Below, piece by piece: positions 2,634-20,856 of a stretch of 64,000 nt of DNA. This DNA comes from Clostridia bacterium (GTDB taxonomy: Bacteria > Bacillota > Clostridia > CAKSNL01 > HGM11501): contig JBGVKY010000026.1 in assembly GCA_045123995.1 (NCBI GenBank), positions 73,600 through 137,599 on the forward strand. The letters run 5' to 3'. The position numbers and the translations under genes are program-made. The notes under the pieces were generated by a model. The model did not search any database, had not been told where the DNA came from, and saw only the letters and a list, made by a program, of their open reading frames with translations. Position 1 is the stretch's first letter, and every line of letters begins with the position of its first letter.

Positions 2634-2880
2634 ATTTTCGTGAAAATTTTCTTTAAGCAATGCATGGGGATAATGAGAGTGCGAGCCGAAAAAATGCTGT
2701 TCGCATTTTTCAAAGTATCGCCCTTACCTTTGAACGGGAGGGGCAATTTTCGTAAAAATTTTCTTTAAGCAATGCATGGGGATAATGAGAGTGCGAGCCA
2801 AAAAAATGCTGTTCGCATTTTTCAAAGTATCGTCCTTACCCTTGAACGGGACGGGCGATTTTCGTAAAAATTTTCTTTGT
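2634..2880. repeat. Tandem direct repeat, 112-bp unit, about 2.2 copies (2634-2745, 2746-2857, partial third copy 2858-2878)
   Basis: Copies 1 and 2 are near-identical (about 5 mismatches). Each unit contains TTGAAC-N17-TAAAAT-like and GCGAGC...GTTCGC plus T-run elements. Confidence 0.9.
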
Positions 2881-2893
2881 TGAAAATTTTTAC

Positions 2894-2933
2894 TTGACAA
2901 ACTGTACTAACTGTATTACAATAAATAATACAG
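2894..2933 (+). promoter_or_regulatory. Sigma-A promoter with consensus -35 TTGACA (2894-2899), 17-bp spacer and -10 TACAAT (2917-2922). It is overlapped by an operator-like inverted repeat CTGTATTA-N7-TAATACAG (2911-2933) and direct half-site repeats ACTGTAcTA/ACTGTAtTA (2901-2918)
   Basis: Read directly from the sequence. The element sits immediately upstream of the GntR-family gene, as expected for an autoregulated YtrA-type operon. Confidence 0.7.
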
Positions 2934-2947
2934 ATGGAGGTGATAAA

Positions 2948-3322
2948 GTGATAAAGTTGGATTACAGAGACAGTCGGGCATTATATGAGCAGGTTAAAGA
3001 AGAAATGAAAAAGCTTATAATCAAAGGGGTGGTAAAAACAGATGAAAAAATCCCGTCAGTAAGAGAATTGGCATGCACTCTGTCCATAAATCCCAACACC
3101 ATTCAGCGGGCATACAGAGAGCTTGAACAGGAGGGATACATCTATTCACTTCGAGCTAAAGGGTTTTTCGTATCGCCCGTAAGCGAAGAAAATACTAAAG
3201 ATAAAGTAAATAAGCTTGAAACAGAGCTTAAAAAAATAGCAAAAGAGCTTTTGTACTTAAACATTGACAAAAAAGAAATACAAGGTATTTTAGATGAATT
3301 ATATAGCGAAAAGGAGGAATGA
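2948..3322 (+). CDS. GntR-family transcriptional regulator, YtrA subfamily (short C-terminal domain)
   Basis: GTG start at 2948 lies 7 nt after RBS GGAGG (2936-2940). The N-terminus VIKLDYRDSRALYEQVKEEM is the classic GntR wHTH start. The protein is about 124 aa. The ORF-track start at 2894 is a TTG inside the promoter -35. Confidence 0.8.
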   Translation: MIKLDYRDSRALYEQVKEEMKKLIIKGVVKTDEKIPSVRELACTLSINPNTIQRAYRELEQEGYIYSLRAKGFFVSPVSEENTKDKVNKLETELKKIAKELLYLNIDKKEIQGILDELYSEKEE

Positions 3323-4224: not shown

Positions 4225-6238
4225 TAAAAGCATTATAAAATCCGACCTTAAGCGTTTTTGGTATCTTGCGGTATTAAATACCCTCGTAACTTTCTTTTCA
4301 GGCACGTTTTTGGTTATGGACAGATTTTTATACGGAAGGCAAAATCCCCAAAGATTAACAAATCTTCCCGGTGATTTTTACTTCGCCATGATTTTTGGTA
4401 TGATCTTTGCCCTCCTAACCACCGTGGCAGTATTTTCCTACTTAAATAAATCAAATCAGGCAGCATTCTGCCACGCTTTTCCTATAAAGAGAAAATGTCA
4501 CTATCTTTCGCATCTTACATCTGTTGTCATACTGATATCGGCATCGGGGATATTAAACTCTTTGGCATTATTCTTTTATACGTTAAATCATAATGTGGCA
4601 AAAAGCTTTACTCCTGACATAGCAATCAAGTTTTTTGTTGTTTACATGACCTATTCTCTTTTAGTAATGTCACTTACCGCATTTACCCAGATGCTTACGG
4701 GACTTTCTAGTGCCTGCGTAGTATTAACAGCATGCTTTGTGGCAATACCTTTTGCCTTTGAAACTTTCATAAAAAGCTTTTTACAAACCCATGTATACGG
4801 CTATTTCGGAGAAAGCGAATATCTTACGGGAAAAATATTTTATCTTTCCTTTGAGAAGATTTTATCGGTAAGAATTTTAATATATTTAGCCCTGATTTTA
4901 GTATTTCTCCTTTTAGGCTATATACTTTATAAATTCAGAAAAATTGAATGCAACGGAGAAGTGGTAGCTTACATAAAAATGAGACCTGTATTTATATATA
5001 CCGTTGCTCTATTTACCGGCATGGCAAGCTATGCATATTTCGGCGGCTTTTATGGGGCGAACATCTTTTTTATGCTGCCTTTTGGTATACTCGGTATAAT
5101 TATTGCTTATATGCTCTCGAGAAAGAGCTTTAATTTAATAGGAGTACATAAACCTCTCATTATCTATACACTTTTTGTAATAGCGGTATTTTTGGTGGTT
5201 AAGCTTGATTTATCGGGATTTGAACGAAGAATGCCTGATATAGAAAACATTTCATCTGTTGAATTTCCGTCTATGAGTCACTATGATAAAGCAGGTTTTT
5301 ATCCTGAGGAAAAACGAACGGATTATGCTATTGAATACTTTTTATGTGACGATGTTTTTGACGGAAAATTCACCGAGTATGAAGATATAGAAAACATCTT
5401 AAAGCTTCATTCCTATAAAATAGAAATCAGAGATAAAAATCAGGGTCCTTCCTTAAGAATAAAATATAATCTTAAAAACGGAAAAACTATGGAAAGACGC
5501 TATAATATAGATGTATATCAAGACAAAGAATATCTTGAAGATATATATAACAGTCAAAAAATGAGAGGTATTCTTTTCGAACTGGCAAACGGAACGAAAA
5601 AAGAACTTGTGGGTCTAGAAGTTTTTGATGACAGATTAAACTATGCTTTTGCATATTATCAGGGCGCAGGAAACTTAGAAGCGGAAAAAATAAAAGATGC
5701 TCTGATAAAGGATTTACTTGAAACTCCTTATGATGAATTGCCCGAAATATACCATCACGAGGGACTTTTCCCCACTAGCATAACCATGTCATTAAAGGTT
5801 GACGGTCACTATCAGAATGAAGAATTTGAAGAAACTACGGCTACAAAACGTTTAAGCTATACAATTTATCCTACTTATAAAAACACCTGGAAAGTTCTTG
5901 AAGAATTGAATCTTACATCAAAGCTTCCGACATCTGACGATGTGCTTGAAATCGGCGTTAACATAAATGATTTCAATACCTCCTGGGATAACAAAGTAGT
6001 AACCTATGAGGAAAGCGCTTATATTGAAGACTATAAGTATATGTATAAGATAACAGATAAAGAGACAATAAAAGAAATATACGAGTGGGCTTTATCCGAC
6101 AAGGTTATATATCCCGAATTTGCCGAGGGGCACAAGAATGTGGATTTATATATAGTATTCAAGAACGGATACTTTTTAAATCATTCTTTCATATTTGACG
6201 AAACCATCTGGCCCGAACCCTTAAAAAATCTTAATTAG
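4199..6238 (+). CDS. Integral membrane protein (ABC-2-type permease-like N-terminal about 330 aa with multiple TM helices, plus about 340-aa C-terminal soluble domain)
   Basis: Hydrophobic segments run through residue about 330, followed by a charged, aromatic-rich domain. The start overlaps the ATPase gene, so translation is coupled. Confidence 0.6.
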   Translation: MLSKMSYLNKSIIKSDLKRFWYLAVLNTLVTFFSGTFLVMDRFLYGRQNPQRLTNLPGDFYFAMIFGMIFALLTTVAVFSYLNKSNQAAFCHAFPIKRKCHYLSHLTSVVILISASGILNSLALFFYTLNHNVAKSFTPDIAIKFFVVYMTYSLLVMSLTAFTQMLTGLSSACVVLTACFVAIPFAFETFIKSFLQTHVYGYFGESEYLTGKIFYLSFEKILSVRILIYLALILVFLLLGYILYKFRKIECNGEVVAYIKMRPVFIYTVALFTGMASYAYFGGFYGANIFFMLPFGILGIIIAYMLSRKSFNLIGVHKPLIIYTLFVIAVFLVVKLDLSGFERRMPDIENISSVEFPSMSHYDKAGFYPEEKRTDYAIEYFLCDDVFDGKFTEYEDIENILKLHSYKIEIRDKNQGPSLRIKYNLKNGKTMERRYNIDVYQDKEYLEDIYNSQKMRGILFELANGTKKELVGLEVFDDRLNYAFAYYQGAGNLEAEKIKDALIKDLLETPYDELPEIYHHEGLFPTSITMSLKVDGHYQNEEFEETTATKRLSYTIYPTYKNTWKVLEELNLTSKLPTSDDVLEIGVNINDFNTSWDNKVVTYEESAYIEDYKYMYKITDKETIKEIYEWALSDKVIYPEFAEGHKNVDLYIVFKNGYFLNHSFIFDETIWPEPLKNLN

Positions 6239-13097: not shown

Positions 13098-14165
13098 TTA
13101 AATCTTTTTTAATCGGTAAAGAAAAGACGCTAGAGCGATTGTTAATCCGGATAATGTTTTTTTGACAGAAACGTTATCGCCGTTAACCGGTTCACCCTCT
13201 CCTAAATATTTTTGGAAAATATTCATGATTCCTAAAGTTGCGTGTTGTCTTAGAGTAGGAGGTAGACTCATAATCTCGTCAGAAACCGATTCTATATAAC
13301 CGGAAAGTATCCCTTGTTTGCATAAAGGTCTTAAATTACCTTTATCATCAAGAATCGCCTCTATATTGTGAAGCCCACGGAATGATTCGAAGTAGTACGT
13401 GTTTTCAAAAGGGACAAGTCTTTTTCCCAATGCATTTACATAATCATTGCAAGCAGAAAAACCGAAAACTTTATATCGTCGTTTTTCGTAGTCGATGTTT
13501 AGGTTTTCTTTGAATGAATCGAGCGCTTCAGGAGAAAACCCTTGCCCGTTAAAAGAAAAGCACAATTTTATTATATCGGAATTCATGGTGATGAATTGCG
13601 CTTTGTTTCCGCCCTTCGAGTGACCTGAAACTGTGATTTTAGAATATATGCCCCAGGAATTTTCTGAAGCTTTTTTGTTAAACCAGTTTAATGCTTCGGT
13701 TTGTTGATCGGTAGCGTAGTCGTTTTTAAGAGTAATGAAATTTTCGGCCTTGCCGTCTTTAGCATAGGTTATGTAAGTATTTTCTTCCGGAATCCCTGAC
13801 AAACCTTCGCCGTTATCGATCCATTCACCGTCTCCGGTCCCTTTGAAAACCACGGAAATAGTATTGTCAGGATTATCGAAACAACAGGCAGTAAGTCCGC
13901 TTTTTGAATAAGTGAAGTTTATAAGCTTTGAATCTGATAGAAATTCGTTATCAGAAACAGCATTTTTTATGATGTTTAATCTTTGTATGTCCCGCTTTTT
14001 CCACGGGACAGTTTTTTCGTTTAAATAGGCGTTTTCCAAATCTGATACTATGGTCTTCAAAGTTTTATTTTCTTTTGGGAGGCTCTTATCAGCTAAATAC
14101 AAATAAGTATTTAATATCGCTTCGTTATTAGCTTTCTTAATCAATTCAAGGGGAATTTTATTCAT
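13098..14165 (-). CDS. Alpha/beta-hydrolase, lipase-like (DUF2974/Mbeg1-like)
   Basis: GHSKGG nucleophile-elbow motif. Start chosen at MNKIPLELIKK (ATG 14165). The upstream extension to 14312 in the ORF track is unlikely. Confidence 0.55.
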   Translation of the reverse strand: MNKIPLELIKKANNEAILNTYLYLADKSLPKENKTLKTIVSDLENAYLNEKTVPWKKRDIQRLNIIKNAVSDNEFLSDSKLINFTYSKSGLTACCFDNPDNTISVVFKGTGDGEWIDNGEGLSGIPEENTYITYAKDGKAENFITLKNDYATDQQTEALNWFNKKASENSWGIYSKITVSGHSKGGNKAQFITMNSDIIKLCFSFNGQGFSPEALDSFKENLNIDYEKRRYKVFGFSACNDYVNALGKRLVPFENTYYFESFRGLHNIEAILDDKGNLRPLCKQGILSGYIESVSDEIMSLPPTLRQHATLGIMNIFQKYLGEGEPVNGDNVSVKKTLSGLTIALASFLYRLKKI

Positions 14166-14341
14166 AAAAAGAGACCTTTCTTTTATCTTTATTCTCTTAT
14201 ATGAAGCATTCTGTATTACAATTACAGTAAATACGGAATATTTGGAGTTAAAATTAAAAGTGTTTGATAATTTTCGGCATGTTCTTTTGTTTTTGGGAAT
14301 ATATTGAACCATACGATGAATTTGTATGGGAGGAAATATAT

Positions 14342-14602
14342 GTGAAATGTTATATAGAAGAACGGGCGGTCGAGCTTGCTAAGTATATTATTGATAATAA
14401 ATGCACGGTAAGGACTACGGCGAAACACTTCGGCATTTCTAAATCTACTGTACATAAAGATGTTACGGAACGGCTTAAGAAAGTTAAACCTGCTTTGGCA
14501 AAGGAGGTATACGAAATATTAAAGGAAAACAAAGAAGAAAGGCACATAAGGGGAGGACTTGCTACAAAAAAGAAATATTTCGAAAAACGTATAGGAAAAT
14601 AA
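14342..14602 (+). CDS. spoIIID: Stage III sporulation protein D (SpoIIID), a small HTH mother-cell transcription factor
   Basis: GTG start 8 nt after GGGAGG (14328-14333). Sequence VKCYIEERAVELAKYIIDNKCTVRTTAKHFGISKSTVHKDVTERL closely matches the SpoIIID HTH region. Confidence 0.85.
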   Translation: MKCYIEERAVELAKYIIDNKCTVRTTAKHFGISKSTVHKDVTERLKKVKPALAKEVYEILKENKEERHIRGGLATKKKYFEKRIGK

Positions 14603-15904: not shown

Positions 15905-17287
15905 GTGAGATTTTTGCTTAAAAAACTTTTTGCTCCGACAGATATGACAGTCGGCACTCCGTGGAAGAGCATACTTATATTTACTCTTCCTATGATTATA
16001 GGTAATATTGCTCAGCAACTTTATAATACTGTTGACAGTATTGTTGTGGGAAGATATGTTGGAGATAATGCCTTTGGTGCAGTAGGTAGTGCAGGCCCCC
16101 TGCTTAATTTGCTTTTAGTTCTCTTTATGGGAGTATCCACCGGTGCGGGAGTTATGACTGCCCAGTATTTCGGAGCCAAGAACAGAGAAAAACTTTCTTA
16201 TACAGTTGGAAATGCTATTACACTTACGGCTATATGCAGTGTTCTGCTCATAATAATTGCCGCGCCTATTCTTGGGTGGATGCTCGGAGTATTAAAGGTT
16301 AAACCGGAACATTTTAAGTGGTGTTATGACTATCTTATGATTTCCATTATCGGTATTGCGGGAATGGGATATTATAACATATTGAGCGGTATTATAAGAG
16401 GTATGGGGGATTCTGTATCTGCGCTTATTTATCTTTTGGTTGCAACAGTTACCAATATTGTTTTAGATATTTTGTTTGTGGCAAATTTAGGAATGGAAGT
16501 CGGGGGAGTTGCTCTTGCAACGGTAATTTCTCAGTTATTTTCTTCGGTTTTGTGTATTGTTAAGCTCAGCAAAATGAAAGAGAACTTTGATTTCGGATTG
16601 AAATACCTCAAACCAAAGAAAGAATATATGATGAAGATAATAACCCTTGGAGTGCCCTCGGGACTTACCCAGGCTATATTCTCTTCTGCTATGCTCATTG
16701 TACAGGGGCTTACAAACAGTTTTACAACGACATTTGTAAATGCAAACATAATAATTATGCGAGTTGACGGTTTTGCAATGATGCCTAATTTCTCCTTTGG
16801 AATGGCGCTTACTACATATGCAGGACAGAATGTTGGAGCGAAGCTTTATGACAGAGTAACAAAAGGAGCAAAACAGGGAACCTTAATGGCTTTTGGATGC
16901 TCTGCTATAATTACGGGAATCATTCTTCTTTTCGGTAAAAATCTCATGGGTGTATTCACCCAAACAAAAGAACTCATAGATTTAAGCTATCATCTTATGA
17001 CGATTTTAGCTCCCGGTTATCTTGCTATGGCAATAACCCAGAGCTTGTCGGGAATTATGCGCGGTGCAGGAGATACAATGACTCCCATGTGGATTTCTCT
17101 TATGACAACCGTTGCCATAAGAGTGCCGCTTGCGTACGGAATTTCAGAACTTACAAAAACTCCGGAGTTACCTTTCGGAAGGCACGAGTGCATCCAACTT
17201 TCACTTCTGGCTTCCTGGGTTATTGGAGCTATACTTACAGCTATTTTCTATTCAAGAGGAAAGTGGAAGAATAAAGCCGTAAACTGA
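15905..17287 (+). CDS. MATE-family efflux transporter
   Basis: 12-TM architecture with typical MATE N-terminus ILIFTLPMIIGNIAQQLYNTVDSIVVG. The start is ambiguous (GTG 15905 or ATG 15941). Confidence 0.85.
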   Translation: MRFLLKKLFAPTDMTVGTPWKSILIFTLPMIIGNIAQQLYNTVDSIVVGRYVGDNAFGAVGSAGPLLNLLLVLFMGVSTGAGVMTAQYFGAKNREKLSYTVGNAITLTAICSVLLIIIAAPILGWMLGVLKVKPEHFKWCYDYLMISIIGIAGMGYYNILSGIIRGMGDSVSALIYLLVATVTNIVLDILFVANLGMEVGGVALATVISQLFSSVLCIVKLSKMKENFDFGLKYLKPKKEYMMKIITLGVPSGLTQAIFSSAMLIVQGLTNSFTTTFVNANIIIMRVDGFAMMPNFSFGMALTTYAGQNVGAKLYDRVTKGAKQGTLMAFGCSAIITGIILLFGKNLMGVFTQTKELIDLSYHLMTILAPGYLAMAITQSLSGIMRGAGDTMTPMWISLMTTVAIRVPLAYGISELTKTPELPFGRHECIQLSLLASWVIGAILTAIFYSRGKWKNKAVN

Positions 17288-17290
17288 ATC

Positions 17291-17319
17291 TTCAAAACGT
17301 ATAAAATCTATGATATACT
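17291..17319 (+). promoter_or_regulatory. Sigma-A-like promoter TTCAAA-N17-TATACT
   Basis: Read from sequence. Followed by a structured leader (see findings). Confidence 0.45.
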
Positions 17320-17468
17320 GAGTTTGCAAGACAAACTCAATGAATTGCCTTACGGCATGAGCGGAACGCCAATTTATGACAACGAAGTTGTCAATTCATT
17401 AAAATTGGGAACATCTAAATCGTATAAAAATTCTAGAATAGTTTAAACCATTAAAAAGGAGAAATTTT

Positions 17469-18413
17469 ATGTCAGATAGCTTTTTGGGTACCTTGTCACC
17501 TTTACTTATGTTGTTTTTTTGCATTTTGTTCGGATATATTCTAAACAAGCTTAAAATTATGCCGGAGTCCACTACAACGGTACTTTCAAAATGTGAAAAG
17601 TATCTGTTTATGCCGGCTTTAGGATATTCAACTTTTTCTAAATATTGCACGGTTAAAAGTATTTATGAAAATGCAAATGTTGTTTTATATTCTCTGATAG
17701 CAATAGCAATAGCCTTAGTAATAGCTATTCCTCTTTCAAGATGTTTTGAAAAAGACGATATAAATAAAAGAAATATTTATAAGTATGCATTGGTTTTTGC
17801 AAATCATGGCTTTATGGGTAATGCCATAGTTCCCCTTGTTTTAGGAGGACAGAGTCATTTATATACATATCTTTTGTTTACGTTGCCTCTTAATTTTTTA
17901 ACTTATGCATGGGGAGTTGTGATTCTTACACCGAAAGAATTGCGCTCAGGCAATGTGTTTAAAAATCTGCTTAATGCACCAATGATAGGAATGCTTGCCG
18001 GGATGGTTATAGGTCTTACAGGCACACAACAATATATACCCCAGTTTGTAAATACTACTGCCGAAACTCTTCAAGGTTGTATGGGTCCTGTTGCAATGAT
18101 ACTTACAGGTTTTGTTATTGGTAATTATGAATTTAAGGGCTTAATCTCGAATGCAAAAGTTTATATAGCAACTTTTTTAAGATTGATACTTCTTCCGACT
18201 GTAATTTTGACAGTTCTGCTATTACTTGGTGCAAGTAAATATACTATTGCACTTGCATTGTTTGCATATGCAACACCGCTTGGTTTAAATACAGTTGTTT
18301 TCCCGGCGGTTTATGGGGGAGATACGCAAACAGGTGCAAGTATGGCTATGATAAGCCACGTCTTATGTGTTATAACAATACCTGTAATGTATGGCTTGCT
18401 AACTCTGATTTAA
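17469..18413 (+). CDS. AEC-family (auxin efflux carrier / malate permease-like) membrane transporter
   Basis: Two 5-TM halves at AEC length. RBS AAAGGAGA. Confidence 0.75.
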   Translation: MSDSFLGTLSPLLMLFFCILFGYILNKLKIMPESTTTVLSKCEKYLFMPALGYSTFSKYCTVKSIYENANVVLYSLIAIAIALVIAIPLSRCFEKDDINKRNIYKYALVFANHGFMGNAIVPLVLGGQSHLYTYLLFTLPLNFLTYAWGVVILTPKELRSGNVFKNLLNAPMIGMLAGMVIGLTGTQQYIPQFVNTTAETLQGCMGPVAMILTGFVIGNYEFKGLISNAKVYIATFLRLILLPTVILTVLLLLGASKYTIALALFAYATPLGLNTVVFPAVYGGDTQTGASMAMISHVLCVITIPVMYGLLTLI

Positions 18414-18569
18414 TTTATTTTGCATATTCATAAAGGAAAACGAAATGAAAAAATGTTATAATGATTTCAAGCGGTGATTGCATATCGACAAAATAAGTGG
18501 CATCTAAATCATTCACTGATTCTATAATAAAAAAATAATTTATTTTTCGGCAAATAAAGGAGAATGACC

Positions 18570-19526
18570 ATGGATTATACTAAAGTTACCATATACACTA
18601 ACTCAGAAGGTGTGGATTTAATAGCAGCGATGCTTTATGATCTCGATATTACAGGTATTCAGATAATGGACAAGACCGATTTTGAAGAATTTATGAAACA
18701 AAATCTCAGAGCATGGGACGTGGTTGACGAAGAATTTATGAGTTCTATGATGTCGCAGGAAACCACAGTCACATTCTATCTTGAAAATAATGCAGAAAAA
18801 GAAAGCATAATATCTATCATAAAGGATAAGCTTGTAAAGATGCCTGCAGGTGAATGCGGGAGACTAAAAGTTGAAGAGTCTTTAGTTAAAGACGAAGACT
18901 GGGCAAATAACTGGAAGAAATATTATAAGCCTTTAAGAATAGGAGAACATATAATAATAAAACCCACCTGGGAAGAAGTGAAGCCTGAAGAAAAGGATGT
19001 TATTGTGGAGTTAGACCCCGGAATGGCATTCGGAACAGGAAGTCATGCCAGCACAAATATGTGCCTTGAATTTTTAGAAAAGGTTATAAAAAAAGGTGAC
19101 AGAGTTCTGGATATTGGTACCGGAAGCGGAATACTCGGAATTGCTGCTTTGAAATTGGGAGCACAAAGCGTTACTGCCGTAGACATAGATCCTCTTGCGG
19201 TGAAAATAGCAAAGGAAAATGCGGCACTTAACGGCTTTTCAGAGCCTGAATTTACTGTTTTCGAAGGAGATTTGGCAGATAAGGTAAAAGGAGAATATGA
19301 CGTTGTAATAGCTAATATCGTAGCTGATATTATTTGCGAACTCTCAAAAACAGTCGGAAATTACATAAAAAAAGACGGGATTTTTATAACCTCCGGAATT
19401 ATTGATTTTAAAGCAGATAAAGTAAGAAATGCCCTTAAAGAAAATGGCATCAAAATTAAAGGAGAAAAATTAAGCAAGGACTGGAATGCTTTTATGTGCT
19501 GCAGAAAGGAAGATGACAATGAATAG
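18570..19526 (+). CDS. prmA: Ribosomal protein L11 methyltransferase
   Basis: DPGMAFGTGSHASTNMCLEFLE and VLDIGTGSGILGIAA motifs. ATG 18570 has better RBS spacing than 18564. Confidence 0.9.
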   Translation: MDYTKVTIYTNSEGVDLIAAMLYDLDITGIQIMDKTDFEEFMKQNLRAWDVVDEEFMSSMMSQETTVTFYLENNAEKESIISIIKDKLVKMPAGECGRLKVEESLVKDEDWANNWKKYYKPLRIGEHIIIKPTWEEVKPEEKDVIVELDPGMAFGTGSHASTNMCLEFLEKVIKKGDRVLDIGTGSGILGIAALKLGAQSVTAVDIDPLAVKIAKENAALNGFSEPEFTVFEGDLADKVKGEYDVVIANIVADIICELSKTVGNYIKKDGIFITSGIIDFKADKVRNALKENGIKIKGEKLSKDWNAFMCCRKEDDNE

Positions 19527-20856
19527 CTTAAATAAAGATTTTTACGAAAAATTAAAAGGTATTTACACAATACACCCTGAAACATATGAAAAATACGATG
19601 TTAAAAGAGGACTCAGAAACAAAGATGGCACAGGTGTTTTGGTAGGGCTTACTTCCATAGGTGATGTAAGAGGATACATCATTGAAGAAAAGGATAAAAT
19701 AAATGTCCCCGGAAAGCTTACATATCGCGGAATAAATATGGTTGACATTGTTAAAGAAAACGAAAAAAGAGGACAACACGCTTTTGAAGAAACTGTATAT
19801 CTTATTTTAATGGGCGAACTTCCTACAAAAGATGAACTTAAGGAATTTAAGGAAATTTTGGCAAAGAAAAGAGAACTTCCCAGGGGATTTACCGAAGATA
19901 TGATTCTTAAAGCTCCCAGCCCCAACATAATGAATAAGCTGGCAAGAGCAGTTTTAGCATCTTATTCCTATGACGAAAATCCTGACAGCACAAGCATTGA
20001 AAATCTGGTAAGACAATCTATTGAGCTTATTTCCAGATTCCCCTCAATGGTTTCTTACGGATACCAGGCAAAAAAGCATTATTATGATGGAGACAGCTTA
20101 TTTTTACACAGTCCTTTGCCGGAATATGACACTGCACAGAATTTTCTTCATATGATAAGAAAGGATAATAAATTCACAGAACTGGAAGCAAGCGTATTGG
20201 ATCTTCTTTTAGTTATACATGCGGAACACGGCGGTGGTAACAACTCAAGCTTTGCAACTCATGTTGTATCTTCCAGCGGAACAGATACGTACAGCGCAAT
20301 AGCTGCGGCTGTAGGATCTTTAAAAGGACCAAGACACGGCGGTGCAAACGCAAAAGTTATAGGAATGATAGATGAAATAAAAGCCTGCTGCAACTGGAAA
20401 GACGAAGGGGCTCTTAAAGACTATCTTGTAAAAATAGTAAATAAAGAGGCTTACGATAAAAGCGGACTTGTGTACGGTATGGGACACGCTATATATACAT
20501 TAAGTGACCCGAGAGCTGAGCTTCTTAAAGAAAAAGCGGAACATATGGCAGCAGAAACCGGCAGAGAAAAGGAATTTGAGCTTTATAAGAGAATTGAGGC
20601 CTTGACTCCAGGAATTTTCAATGAAATCAAAGGAAATAAAAAGCACTTGTGTGCCAATGTTGATTTGTATTCCGGTTTTGTATACAGCATGCTTGGTATT
20701 CCAGAGGAGCTTTACACTCCCTTGTTTGCAATAGCAAGAGTTCCCAGCTGGTGTGCTCACAGAATGGAAGAAATTGTGGCAGGCGGAAAAATTATTCGTC
20801 CCGCGTATAAGAGCGTCAGCATCAAGAGAAGCTATACTCCTATAGAAGAAAGATAA
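19516..20856 (+). CDS. Citrate synthase (Si-type, GltA family)
   Basis: HAEHGGG...SS and GPRHGGAN motifs and catalytic His/Asp region. RBS GAAAGGAAG. Overlaps the prmA 3' end by 11 nt. Confidence 0.85.
   Translation, partial: TMNSLNKDFYEKLKGIYTIHPETYEKYDVKRGLRNKDGTGVLVGLTSIGDVRGYIIEEKDKINVPGKLTYRGINMVDIVKENEKRGQHAFEETVYLILMGELPTKDELKEFKEILAKKRELPRGFTEDMILKAPSPNIMNKLARAVLASYSYDENPDSTSIENLVRQSIELISRFPSMVSYGYQAKKHYYDGDSLFLHSPLPEYDTAQNFLHMIRKDNKFTELEASVLDLLLVIHAEHGGGNNSSFATHVVSSSGTDTYSAIAAAVGSLKGPRHGGANAKVIGMIDEIKACCNWKDEGALKDYLVKIVNKEAYDKSGLVYGMGHAIYTLSDPRAELLKEKAEHMAAETGREKEFELYKRIEALTPGIFNEIKGNKKHLCANVDLYSGFVYSMLGIPEELYTPLFAIARVPSWCAHRMEEIVAGGKIIRPAYKSVSIKRSYTPIEER

What the first reader, a model, noticed from the sequence alone, without database searches (positions are those of the whole stretch)
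17288..17468. Structured 150-nt leader upstream of the AEC-family transporter
A 7-bp hairpin (GAGTTTG-CAAGA-CAAACTC) follows the TATACT -10 box. Next comes a 9-bp long-range stem (AATGAATTG ... CAATTCATT) that encloses a 7-bp hairpin (TGACAAC-GAA-GTTGTCA). Nested stems are riboswitch- or attenuator-like. AEC transporters have no riboswitch class I can name, so this may be an unclassified cis-regulatory RNA.
Basis: seen in the sequence. Interest (0 to 1): 0.5.

Follow-up and report, generated by a model that had tools for sequence, protein, structure and literature searches.

The report
Truncated copy of a hairpin-array repeat
The folded "leader" in front of the transporter gene is real, but it is a half-deleted copy of a dispersed repeat (short hairpins strung between conserved 8-base linkers) that sits in front of many unrelated genes in gut and rumen Clostridia and in phage-like contigs, so it is not a transporter-specific riboswitch.

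Summary
All three stems exist at the stated coordinates. The 87-nt core (17317-17403) folds better than all 200 shuffles (z -3.9). The full 193 nt does not (z -1.47).

The region is not an AEC leader. Thirteen AEC orthologue loci (45-91% aa) have short, unrelated upstream regions. Five close relatives have MATE directly followed by prmA, with no AEC gene.

A metagenome scan with hairpin 2 recovered 30 loci, and 15 full-length (~185-nt) copies of a repeat were assembled from them. A conserved promoter-like flank often follows.

The window copy matches the family profile in two pieces (E 2e-6 and 2e-7) and lacks about 104 internal positions. A second, almost fully deleted copy lies downstream of AEC.

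The local hairpins covary (0/500 shuffles). The long-range stem is invariant, so it is untested. Copies face the downstream gene in 13 of 13 cases, and those genes are unrelated. Rfam has no match.

Function is unknown. A generic 5'-UTR or intercistronic module is the most likely reading.

The parts
17291..17319 (+). Promoter-like site P1: -35 TTCAAA (17291-17296) and extended -10 TGaTATACT (17311-17319). It is orthologous to the prmA promoter of relatives that lack the AEC gene.
   Evidence: Consensus scan. 28-30 of 40 bases match the MATE-prmA intergenic promoters of L015-L018, against 16-24 of 40 for promoters upstream of other copies of the repeat. Alignment A1.
17319..17339 (+). H0, the first hairpin of the repeat (TGAGTTTG-CAAGA-CAAACTCA). 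It abuts the -10 box and sits at the left edge of the inserted DNA.
   Evidence: Nearly the same hairpin starts the copies in L026 and L036. Other copies have different perfect 7-10 bp stems at the same position: 12 of 30 contexts, against 0.5% of control positions.
17340..17360 (+). Linker L1 (ATGAATTG), hairpin H1 ((T)GCC-TTAC-GGC(A)) and the first 5 bases (CATGA) of linker L2. The copy breaks here.
   Evidence: nhmmer with the family profile: window 17320-17361 matches model positions 3-46, E 2.4e-6. Sequence comparison.
17361..17400 (+). About 104 model positions (L2 to R2) are missing between 17360 and 17361.
   Evidence: nhmmer: window 17366-17401 matches model positions 151-186, E 1.6e-7..
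17401..17439 (+). Pb copy P2, the conserved promoter-like right flank of the repeat (AAAATTGGgaaCATCTAAATC...ATTCTAGAAT).
   Evidence: A profile of this flank built without the window rows hits 17383-17468, E 1.4e-8. Alignment A3.
17456..17471 (+). Shine-Dalgarno sequence AAGGAG (17456-17461) and ATG (17469-17471) of the AEC gene. It is not paired with the repeat in the predicted fold.
17469..18413 (+). AEC / Mem_trans (PF03547) transporter gene, bracketed by the two decayed repeat copies. It is absent from this position in close relatives.
   Evidence: Pfam E 1.2e-24. Relatives L015-L019 have MATE, then about 70 nt, then prmA.
18450..18469 (+). Copy B, left remnant: a -10-like TGTTATAAT plus the first 7 bases of an H0 (GATTTCA).
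   Evidence: 19 of 20 bases match L043:788-807, which is the -10 plus H0 start of a full-length copy.
18490..18528 (+). Copy B, right remnant: Pb copy P3 (AAAATAAGTGGCATCTAAATCATTCACTGATTCTATAAT). Its -10-like hexamer is placed where the ancestral prmA -10 sits relative to the prmA 5' UTR.
   Evidence: Profile hit at 18491-18528, E 2.2e-4. 18 of 19 bases match L043:986-1004 and 25 of 27 match L044:1245-1271. Alignments A1 and A3.
17260..19320 (.). Approximate extent of a tract that diverges from the otherwise ~99% identical relative L015. It was probably imported by recombination and carries the repeat copies and the AEC gene.
   Evidence: Sliding identity of window against L015: about 0.97-1.00 left of 17200 and right of about 19320-19800, but 0.73-0.94 across 18521-19320.

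Best explanation
Shown: the interval is not a leader that evolved with the AEC transporter. It is an internally deleted copy of a dispersed intergenic repeat of about 185 nt.

The family consensus has this order:
- a variable perfect hairpin, H0;
- four units of linker ATGAATTG plus a short variable hairpin;
- a centre, ATTAAAAGG;
- four to five units of linker (C)AATTCATG plus a hairpin, the last being ACAAC-NNN-GTTGT-CAATTCAT;
- often a conserved promoter-like flank, Pb (TTGGCATCTAAA..TTCTATAAT).

The window copy keeps H0, L1, H1, H5, R3, H6, R4 and Pb, and lacks about 104 central positions. A second copy, reduced to its two flanks, lies between AEC and prmA.

The DNA from H0 to the second Pb, including AEC, sits exactly downstream of the -10 box of the ancestral prmA promoter. 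It lies inside a tract that looks imported by recombination.

Inferred: the array is transcribed with the downstream gene, from P1 here, as a generic 5'-UTR or intercistronic module. Its stable hairpins act constitutively, for example by protecting the mRNA 5' region from nucleases or Rho, or by insulating translation of the next gene. They do not sense a ligand. In this window the copy is a decaying remnant with little or no specific regulatory role. Transcription of AEC may start at P1, and possibly also at P2.
For: Family membership:
- A scan with hairpin 2 plus R4 found 30 metagenome loci. The contexts share the whole architecture.
- The profile of 13 full copies hits the window only at 17320-17361 and 17366-17401, at model positions 3-46 and 151-186.

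Structure:
- Full copies fold with z -5.2.
- Local hairpins on a MAFFT alignment are 97.6% paired, with 8 pairs and 14 cells showing double changes, and 0 of 500 shuffles reaching this.
- Inter-linker segments form stems of at least 4 bp in 26% of cases, against 0.4% when shuffled. There are 35 distinct arms.
- H0 is a perfect stem of 7-10 bp, with about 9 different sequences.

Not specific to AEC:
- Orthologues lack it.
- Downstream genes are unrelated.

Location and orientation:
- Copies are intergenic and point toward the downstream gene in 13 of 13 determinable cases, usually 17-75 nt from its start.
- Three arrays lie between co-oriented phage genes in L054.
- The related contigs L054 and L079 keep the arrays at 85% identity, with compensatory differences.

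Insertion:
- Relatives with 87-99% identical MATE have MATE directly followed by prmA.
- P1 is orthologous to their promoter.
- The divergent tract is shown.
- Copy B is shown.
Against: - No expression data exist, so transcription, the start site and any RNA-level role are inferred.
- In at least 7 copies a sigma70-like -10 box ends on the first base of H0. A start about 7 nt downstream would leave H0's 5' arm out of that transcript, which is odd for an RNA hairpin.
- Stems are almost always perfect Watson-Crick, and G.U pairs are no commoner than A.C mismatches (1 against 1 in 83 stems; about 1.6% G.U). There is therefore no RNA-strand signature, and both strands fold equally well.
- The linker-to-linker (long-range) pairing has no covariation support (144 of 500 shuffles).
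- Many copies are partial, as expected for dispensable repeats.
- H6 is invariant by construction of the search.
Confidence: 0.75

Rival explanations
1. A selfish or DNA-level repeat, not an RNA device. The arrays would be REP/BIME-, MITE- or BOX-like elements whose hairpins matter in single-stranded DNA, for example as substrates of a HUH or other recombinase, or are kept perfect by intrastrand template switching. They would spread into promoter-proximal AT-rich sites, and effects on neighbouring genes would be incidental. This overlaps the best explanation on identity and differs on the level of action.
For: - Stems are almost always perfect Watson-Crick, with no excess of G.U.
- Triloops closed by C-G (GAA, GCA, AAA, ACA) are common, and units such as GCGAAGC occur.
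- Both strands fold equally well.
- Linkers are conserved as sequence without covariation.
- Partial and internally deleted copies are frequent.
- The element begins at a fixed position after unrelated resident -10 boxes.
- The left and right linkers are mutual reverse complements, like terminal inverted repeats.
- Two copies bracket a gene that is absent in relatives.
Against: - No transposase or recombinase was found to be associated.
- No clean target-site duplication was identified.
- Orientation relative to the downstream gene is uniform (13 of 13), which is unusual for MITEs.
- Arrays are retained at orthologous positions in the related contigs L054 and L079 (85% identical) and evolve at the same rate as the flanking genes, with compensatory changes. 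This suggests selection rather than recent mobility.
- Density looks low: there is only this one locus in the 64-kb window and none in about 120 kb of unselected loci.
Confidence: 0.3
2. One reading: a ligand-sensing riboswitch or a transcription attenuator that controls the AEC transporter.
For: - It is located between a promoter-like site and the AEC start codon.
- It has nested stems.
- There is no Rfam match, so it would be unclassified.
Against: - It is absent upstream of all 13 AEC orthologue loci examined, including a 91%-identical one with a 37-nt spacer.
- The same element precedes functionally unrelated genes and phage structural genes.
- There is no terminator-like site in 17288-17468.
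- The Shine-Dalgarno sequence is not sequestered by the conserved part.
- The sequence between the hairpins consists of repeated linkers, not a conserved ligand pocket.
- The window copy has lost about 104 of 187 consensus positions.
Confidence: 0.03
3. The palindromes are operators for transcription factors: DNA-binding sites overlapping the transcription start site and lying upstream of P2.
For: - H0 is an inverted repeat placed at about -6 to +15 relative to P1.
- TGACAAC-N3-GTTGTCA is a typical operator shape.
Against: - H0 differs completely in sequence between copies while keeping its palindromy, so no single protein could read it.
- Neither palindrome recurs elsewhere in the 64-kb window.
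- The same units occur in arrays between phage genes with no promoter.
Confidence: 0.04
4. A remnant of a coding sequence. Frame +1 is open for 52 codons, from the MATE stop codon to 17446.
For: The open frame is seen (ORF 17324-17446).
Against: - An exhaustive HMMER search of 1.84 billion representative proteins gave only three borderline hits (E 1e-4 to 7e-4). All were to internally repetitive proteins, where scores are summed over repeats.
- There is no Pfam match.
- The region is explained base by base by the repeat family.
Confidence: 0.02

Closest known systems
REP/BIME elements (repetitive extragenic palindromes and their mosaic clusters) of Enterobacteria and Pseudomonas
   Same: - Short intergenic palindromic units arranged in clusters with conserved short linkers.
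- Co-transcribed with flanking genes.
- Thought to stabilise mRNA or to act as protein-binding or recombination sites.
- Prone to partial copies.

This description of REP/BIME rests on my own knowledge and on the review PMC3184786, which was listed but not read in detail.
   Different: - REP stems are conserved in sequence within a genome, number in the hundreds, carry a GTAG-type head and are linked to RAYT transposases.
- Here the stems are variable and covarying, and the 8-nt linkers are the conserved part.
- Here units are arranged as a left block and an inverted right block.
- Copy density looks low and no RAYT was seen.
BOX elements of Streptococcus pneumoniae (boxA-(boxB)n-boxC), and bcr1-type repeats of the Bacillus cereus group
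   Same: - Modular intergenic repeats in Firmicutes with a variable number of internal units.
- Strong predicted secondary structure.
- Located in 5' UTRs or between genes, with effects on neighbouring gene expression.

This comparison rests on my own knowledge.
   Different: - No sequence relationship was tested or seen.
- BOX modules are 45-59 nt and conserved in sequence.
- The present units are about 20 nt, with an invariant linker and a free-sequence hairpin.
Correia elements (CREE) of Neisseria
   Same: - Small intergenic repeats.
- They lie next to promoters, contribute promoter elements to the downstream gene and are transcribed into hairpin-forming 5' UTRs.

This comparison rests on my own knowledge.
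   Different: - Correia elements are a single long inverted repeat with 26-bp termini and a TA target duplication.
- The element here is an array of many small hairpins, and no duplication was identified.
Integron attC sites / Vibrio cholerae repeats
   Same: - Imperfectly symmetric elements of 60-140 nt between co-oriented genes.
- Structure rather than sequence is conserved.
- They bracket single-gene cassettes, as the two copies bracket AEC here.
   Different: - The R''/L''/L'/R' core (RYYYAAC ... GTTRRRY) and the extrahelical bases are absent.
- No integron integrase is nearby.
- Some arrays lie next to promoter-like boxes rather than promoterless cassettes.
Riboswitches and attenuators (Rfam cis-regulatory families)
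   Same: Position between a promoter and a ribosome-binding site, with nested stems.
   Different: - No covariance-model match.
- No conserved junction or pocket sequence.
- No expression platform.
- No association with a gene function.

Membership tests
Any Rfam 15 family (riboswitch, leader, sRNA) | A match to the family covariance model at or near its gathering score. | tested here: not met
   Window 17000-17800: the best hit has E 2.7, at 18.9 bits against a gathering score of 49.9. Eight loci with full-length copies gave no hit on the arrays at E <= 1.
Riboswitch or leader specific to AEC (PF03547) transporters | Conservation upstream of orthologous transporter genes. | tested here: not met
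   10 GTDB loci (45-79% aa) and 3 contigs with a 91% orthologue have short, unrelated upstream regions. Only L005 shares the Pb-like flank, without any hairpin array.
Intrinsic-terminator attenuator | A G+C-rich hairpin followed by a U-run in the leader, with a mutually exclusive antiterminator. | tested here: not met
   No terminator-like site in 17288-17468. H0 and H6 are followed by AATGAATT and ATTCATTAAAA.
Hairpin-array repeat (family defined here) | A significant match to the profile built from full-length copies, in the family's order of units. | tested here: met
   nhmmer E 2.4e-6 (model 3-46) and E 1.6e-7 (model 151-186), colinear, with no other hit in the 64 kb.
Hairpin-array repeat (family defined here) | Conserved linkers ATGAATTG (left block) and CAATTCAT(G) (right block), separated by short hairpins. 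| tested here: met
   The window has L1, a truncated L2, R3 (one substitution) and R4, with H1, H5 and H6 between them. It has only 3.5 of the usual 8-9 linkers.
Hairpin-array repeat (family defined here) | A variable perfect hairpin H0 abutting L1, and the Pb flank after R4. | tested here: met
   H0 is at 17319-17339. Pb gives a profile hit at E 1.4e-8.
MITE (miniature inverted-repeat transposable element) | Terminal inverted repeats. | tested here: inconclusive
   L1 and R4 are exact reverse complements (helix 1, invariant). But the same 8-mer is repeated internally, and H0 and Pb lie outside it.
MITE (miniature inverted-repeat transposable element) | Target-site duplication and pairs of empty and filled sites. 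| tested here: inconclusive
   An empty site exists in relatives, but the insert also carries a gene and lies in a recombined tract. Both borders fall at -10-like hexamers, which cannot be told apart from promoter consensus.
MITE / REP | Many copies per genome, and a cognate transposase or RAYT. | not testable with these tools
   No complete genome of a carrier organism was available. There is one locus in this 64-kb window and up to 3 arrays within 5 kb in some contigs.
REP elements | Sequence-conserved imperfect palindromes of 20-40 nt with a conserved GTAG-like head. | tested here: not met
   Stems differ in sequence between and within copies, with 35 distinct arms among 83 stems. The conserved part is the linker.
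Integron attC | R''-L''...L'-R' core sites (RYYYAAC / GTTRRRY). | tested here: not met
   By inspection of the consensus, the termini are ATGAATTG and CAATTCAT. No integrase was seen among the neighbouring ORFs.
CRISPR array | Direct repeats of at least 23 nt separated by unique non-palindromic spacers of similar length. | tested here: not met
   The repeats are 8-9 nt. The spacers are 9-16-nt palindromes. Linker orientation inverts at mid-array.

The most novel reading that the evidence does not exclude
The hairpin arrays may be a previously undescribed class of structured intergenic element in Clostridia and the phage-like contigs that carry them.

The design is invariant 8-nt linkers alternating with hairpins of free sequence, in a left block and an inverted right block. 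The array starts right after a resident promoter's -10 box and ends in its own promoter-like box.

Such an element could serve as a portable 'promoter-in / promoter-out' expression boundary. It could also serve as the recombination substrate by which single genes, here the AEC transporter bracketed by two copies, are moved between loci. It might act as RNA or as single-stranded DNA through a dedicated, still unidentified partner protein that reads the linkers.
Probability: 0.25. Interest if true: 0.7.

Novelty: new variant of a known kind. Interest (0 to 1): 0.42.

Why it matters
For this locus, the result removes a false riboswitch lead. It also shows that the AEC gene is a recent, strain-specific acquisition placed under the prmA promoter region.

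More generally, it reveals a repeat family with three notable properties:
- It is absent from Rfam, and no match was found in the GenBank phage and PLSDB plasmid collections.
- It is kept by compensatory change over at least 15% sequence divergence.
- It is strictly co-oriented with the downstream gene, and it also occurs in phage-like contigs.

If the arrays prove to be functional, they would be a compact, portable module for gene expression or gene shuffling in gut and rumen Clostridia. They would also be a recurring source of false positives in riboswitch screens.

Tried and rejected
1. Rfam at a permissive E-value, on the window and on eight full-length copies: nothing.

2. Coding-remnant idea. 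The 42-aa open frame was searched against 1.84 billion proteins. Only repeat-inflated borderline hits came back. Rejected.

3. BLAST of a full copy against the PLSDB plasmid and GenBank phage collections: no match.

4. Literature search by linker sequence and by descriptive terms: no description of this element was found.

5. Long-range linker pairing (L1:R4, L2:R3 and so on). The columns are invariant or show uncompensated changes, with one compensated case (L036), and 144 of 500 shuffles reach the observed score.

6. Strand assignment from G.U against A.C counts: 1 against 1. Uninformative.

7. H0 as an inverted duplication of the local target sequence. Rejected, because L026, L036 and the window share H0 but have unrelated upstream DNA.

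8. Pb as a general promoter class of this organism. TGGCATCYRRA is not enriched in the window (10 found, 7.5 expected).

9. RNAalifold on the full copies chose an alternative helix (L1 plus the H1 5' arm pairing with the centre and R1), with little covariation. The repeated linkers allow several competing folds, so no single global structure is claimed.

10. The first inter-linker hairpin count used fuzzy linker matching and admitted many chance triples of linker-like words. It was redone on profile-defined copies.

Full report
THE OBSERVATION

The interval 17288-17468 is the 181-nt spacer between a MATE efflux gene (15905-17287) and an AEC / Mem_trans gene (17469-18413). prmA follows downstream.

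The three stems exist as described:
- TGAGTTTG/CAAACTCA at 17319-17339.
- TGACAAC-GAA-GTTGTCA at 17377-17393.
- AATGAATTG (17339-17347) with CAATTCATT (17392-17400). This 3' arm shares two bases with the second hairpin.

A sigma70-like site, TTCAAA-17-TGaTATACT, ends at 17319.

As a whole the interval does not fold unusually well (z -1.47). The 87-nt core 17317-17403 does (z -3.9; 0 of 200 shuffles). Two perfect hairpins of at least 7 bp arise in 0.9% of shuffles. Rfam gives nothing (best E 2.7), and no terminator-like site lies in the interval.

IS IT AN AEC LEADER?

No.
- Ten GTDB loci with AEC orthologues (45-79% aa) have short upstream spacers, different upstream genes and no similar sequence.
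- The closest orthologue (91% aa; three contigs) sits 37 nt after a glycosyltransferase gene and is followed by glycerate kinase.

WHERE DID THE REGION COME FROM?

Homologues of the upstream MATE protein at 99, 93, 90 and 87% identity, from five assemblies, all show MATE, then about 70 nt, then prmA, with no AEC gene.

The spacer in these relatives is a promoter: TTGCAA-17-TGATAAAAT. The window's P1 is its orthologue, matching at 28-30 of 40 positions. It matches promoters upstream of other copies of the repeat at only 16-24 of 40.

The DNA from about 17320 to about 18534 is therefore an insertion immediately downstream of the ancestral -10 box. It comprises the leader, the AEC gene and 120 nt downstream.

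Identity to the 99% relative is about 0.97-1.00 on both sides but falls to 0.73-0.94 across prmA (18521-19320). The insertion therefore lies in a tract that was probably imported by homologous recombination from an unsampled relative.

THE KEY RESULT

A metagenome scan with TGACAACNNNGTTGTCAATTCAT (hairpin 2 plus the 3' long-range arm) returned 30 loci. Their contexts are homologous well beyond the pattern.

Fifteen full-length copies define a repeat of about 185 nt, with this order:
- H0, a perfect hairpin of 7-10 bp.
- L1 ATGAATTG, then H1 (G)CC-TTAC-GG(C).
- L2, then H2 GAAATC-AAA-GATTTC.
- L3, then H3 GAGCC-TTGC-GGCTC.
- L4, then H4 GCAC(C)-TTC-(G)GTGC.
- Centre ATTAAAAGG.
- R1 CAATTCAATTCATG, then segment X GAGCG-N-AGCGAG.
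- R2 AATTCATG, then H5 GGC-TTTA-GCC.
- R3 AATTCATG, then H6 ACAAC-NNN-GTTGT.
- R4 CAATTCAT.

L026 and L036 begin with TGAGTTTGCAAAGCAAA(C/A)TCA, essentially the window's hairpin 1.

A profile HMM of 13 full copies hits the window at only two colinear places:
- 17320-17361, model positions 3-46, E 2.4e-6.
- 17366-17401, model positions 151-186, E 1.6e-7.

The window copy therefore lacks about 104 central positions (L2 to R2). The junction lies at CATGA|GCGG (17360/17361).

A CONSERVED RIGHT FLANK AND A SECOND COPY

In many copies R4 is followed, at fixed spacing, by AAAA..TTGGCATCTAAA..(10-12)..TTCTATAAT. I call this flank Pb (alignment A3).

A profile of this flank, built without the window rows, hits the window at only two places:
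- 17383-17468, E 1.4e-8 (copy P2).
- 18491-18528, E 2.2e-4 (copy P3, just upstream of prmA).

Two further matches point to a second copy:
- 18450-18469 matches the -10 box plus the first 7 bases of H0 of L043 at 19 of 20 positions.
- 18490-18508 matches the bases that follow R4 in L043 at 18 of 19 positions.

In L043 these two pieces are 180 nt apart. In the window they are 20 nt apart. A second copy (B), with almost its whole array deleted, therefore lies between AEC and prmA, and the AEC gene is bracketed by two decayed copies in direct orientation. The -10-like hexamer of P3 sits where the ancestral -10 box sat relative to the prmA 5' UTR.

IS THE STRUCTURE REAL IN THE FAMILY?

- Full copies fold with z -5.2 on the gene strand and -6.0 on the other strand.
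- On a plain MAFFT alignment of 13 copies, the local hairpins H1-H6 are 97.6% paired. Eight pairs and 14 cells show changes on both sides. No shuffle out of 500 reaches these values, and slid controls fall to 30-46% paired.
- H6 is invariant, but this follows from the search pattern.
- H0 cannot be aligned because its sequence differs entirely between subfamilies. Examples are TGAGTTTGC, TGATTTCATC, TGCGGTTGA, TGAGCCTGCC, TGCATTGC and TGATGAAAAC. A perfect stem of at least 7 bp abuts L1 in 12 of 30 contexts, against 0.5% of control positions.
- Without any alignment, segments between like linkers form end-anchored stems of at least 4 bp in 26% of cases, against 0.4% when shuffled, with 35 distinct arms. 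In profile-defined copies, 83 of 111 segments are hairpins.
It has one compensated case and several uncompensated ones, and 144 of 500 shuffles reach the observed score. Comparison says nothing for or against it.
- RNAalifold prefers a competing helix. The repeated linkers allow several global folds.

WHERE THE COPIES SIT

- All copies are intergenic.
- Copies with a definable orientation point toward the downstream gene in 13 of 13 cases. R4 usually lies 17-75 nt before the start codon.
- The downstream genes are unrelated: 23S-rRNA-IVS / four-helix-bundle proteins (three times), a laccase-domain protein, IspH-S1, VanW, RnfD, hypothetical proteins, and here AEC and prmA.
- Related arrays occur in IMG/VR contigs. 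L054 has three arrays between co-oriented genes, including terminase and portal genes, and they fill almost the whole spacers.
- L054 and L079 are 85% identical across genes and arrays alike. The arrays differ by compensatory or symmetric changes, for example GGCGC..GCGCC against GGTGC..GCACC.
- In at least 7 copies a good sigma70-type promoter with an extended -10 box ends exactly on the first base of H0. These promoters are unrelated to each other.

INTERPRETATION

Shown:
- The finding is a truncated member of a dispersed family of hairpin-array repeats.
- It is neither AEC-specific nor a known RNA family.
- It arrived together with the AEC gene in a strain-specific insertion.

Inferred, at moderate to low confidence:
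- The arrays are transcribed with the downstream gene and act as a constitutive structural module in 5' UTRs and intercistronic spacers. Possible roles are protection from nucleases or Rho, or translational insulation.
- The strict co-orientation, the proximity to ribosome-binding sites, the retention in the related contigs L054 and L079, and the compensatory changes favour a selected, strand-specific role.

Against an RNA role:
- The stems are almost always perfect Watson-Crick, with no G.U excess.
- Both strands fold equally well.
- C-G-closed triloops, which are favoured in DNA, are common.
- A transcript starting from the abutting -10 box would lack the 5' arm of H0.
- Partial copies are frequent.

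A DNA-level or selfish-repeat nature, similar to REP/BIME, BOX or MITE elements, therefore remains a serious rival. The element's systematic start right after a resident -10 box and its end in a -10-like box are unexplained.

COMPARISON WITH KNOWN SYSTEMS

The element works most like the intergenic palindromic repeat families: REP/BIME, BOX, bcr1 and Correia. It fails the defining features of several classes (see the membership table):
- REP: sequence-conserved stems and a GTAG head.
- attC: the core sites.
- CRISPR arrays.
- Riboswitches and attenuators.

MITE status is inconclusive. No match was found in Rfam 15, in the GenBank phage or PLSDB plasmid collections, or in the searchable literature. 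I rate it a new variant of a known kind.

LIMITS

- There are no expression data.
- No complete carrier genome was available.
- The family was sampled through one 20-base pattern and one linker pattern, so its subfamily composition and its taxonomic range are biased.

Noticed in passing
L015:1012-2544 and L016:1006-2683, compared with window 13098-14602: In the two closest relatives, a 510-aa large serine recombinase gene (Resolvase, Recombinase and Zn_ribbon_recom domains) lies directly upstream of rodA. In L016 it overlaps a 59-aa SpoIIID fragment. The window has an intact spoIIID (14264-14602) and no recombinase. spoIIID may be split by a skin-like intervening element in the relatives.
   Followed up: partly
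window about 17260-19320: prmA and the end of the MATE gene are only 73-94% identical to the relative L015, which is otherwise about 99% identical. This looks like a recombination import that brought in the AEC gene.
   Followed up: yes
L033:6824-7195, L044:528-878, L047:557-907: Small 23S-rRNA-intervening-sequence / four-helix-bundle (Avd-like, PF05635) genes start 17-28 nt after a full hairpin array in three independent contigs. In L033 the gene is followed by a second, left-half array.
   Followed up: partly
L054 (IMG/VR contig, 5.1 kb): 237-384, 2871-3015, 4512-4763: Three G+C-richer arrays of the same design fill the spacers between co-oriented phage genes (terminase large subunit, portal). 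Units such as GCGAAGC and GAAATC-NNN-GATTTC appear in different orders in the different arrays, and one array carries an insert of about 110 nt at its centre.
   Followed up: partly
L005:2930-2965: A 73%-identical AEC orthologue has the Pb-like box (TTGGCATCTAAATTATACAGCTTCTATAGT) upstream but no hairpin array. Pb can therefore occur on its own.
   Followed up: partly
window 18564-18572: The mechanical ORF call starts prmA at ATG 18564 (MTMDY...). The relatives and the Shine-Dalgarno spacing point to ATG 18570 (MDY...).
   Followed up: no
window 13580-13597: AATTCAT and ATGAATT occur 11 nt apart, forming a small palindrome of the two linker words, at the 3' part of the 13098-14312 minus-strand ORF. 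Probably chance.
   Followed up: no
L029:60-138: A sub-threshold match to Rfam Clostridiales-2 RNA (28 bits against a gathering score of 58.6; E 0.005), unrelated to the array.
   Followed up: no
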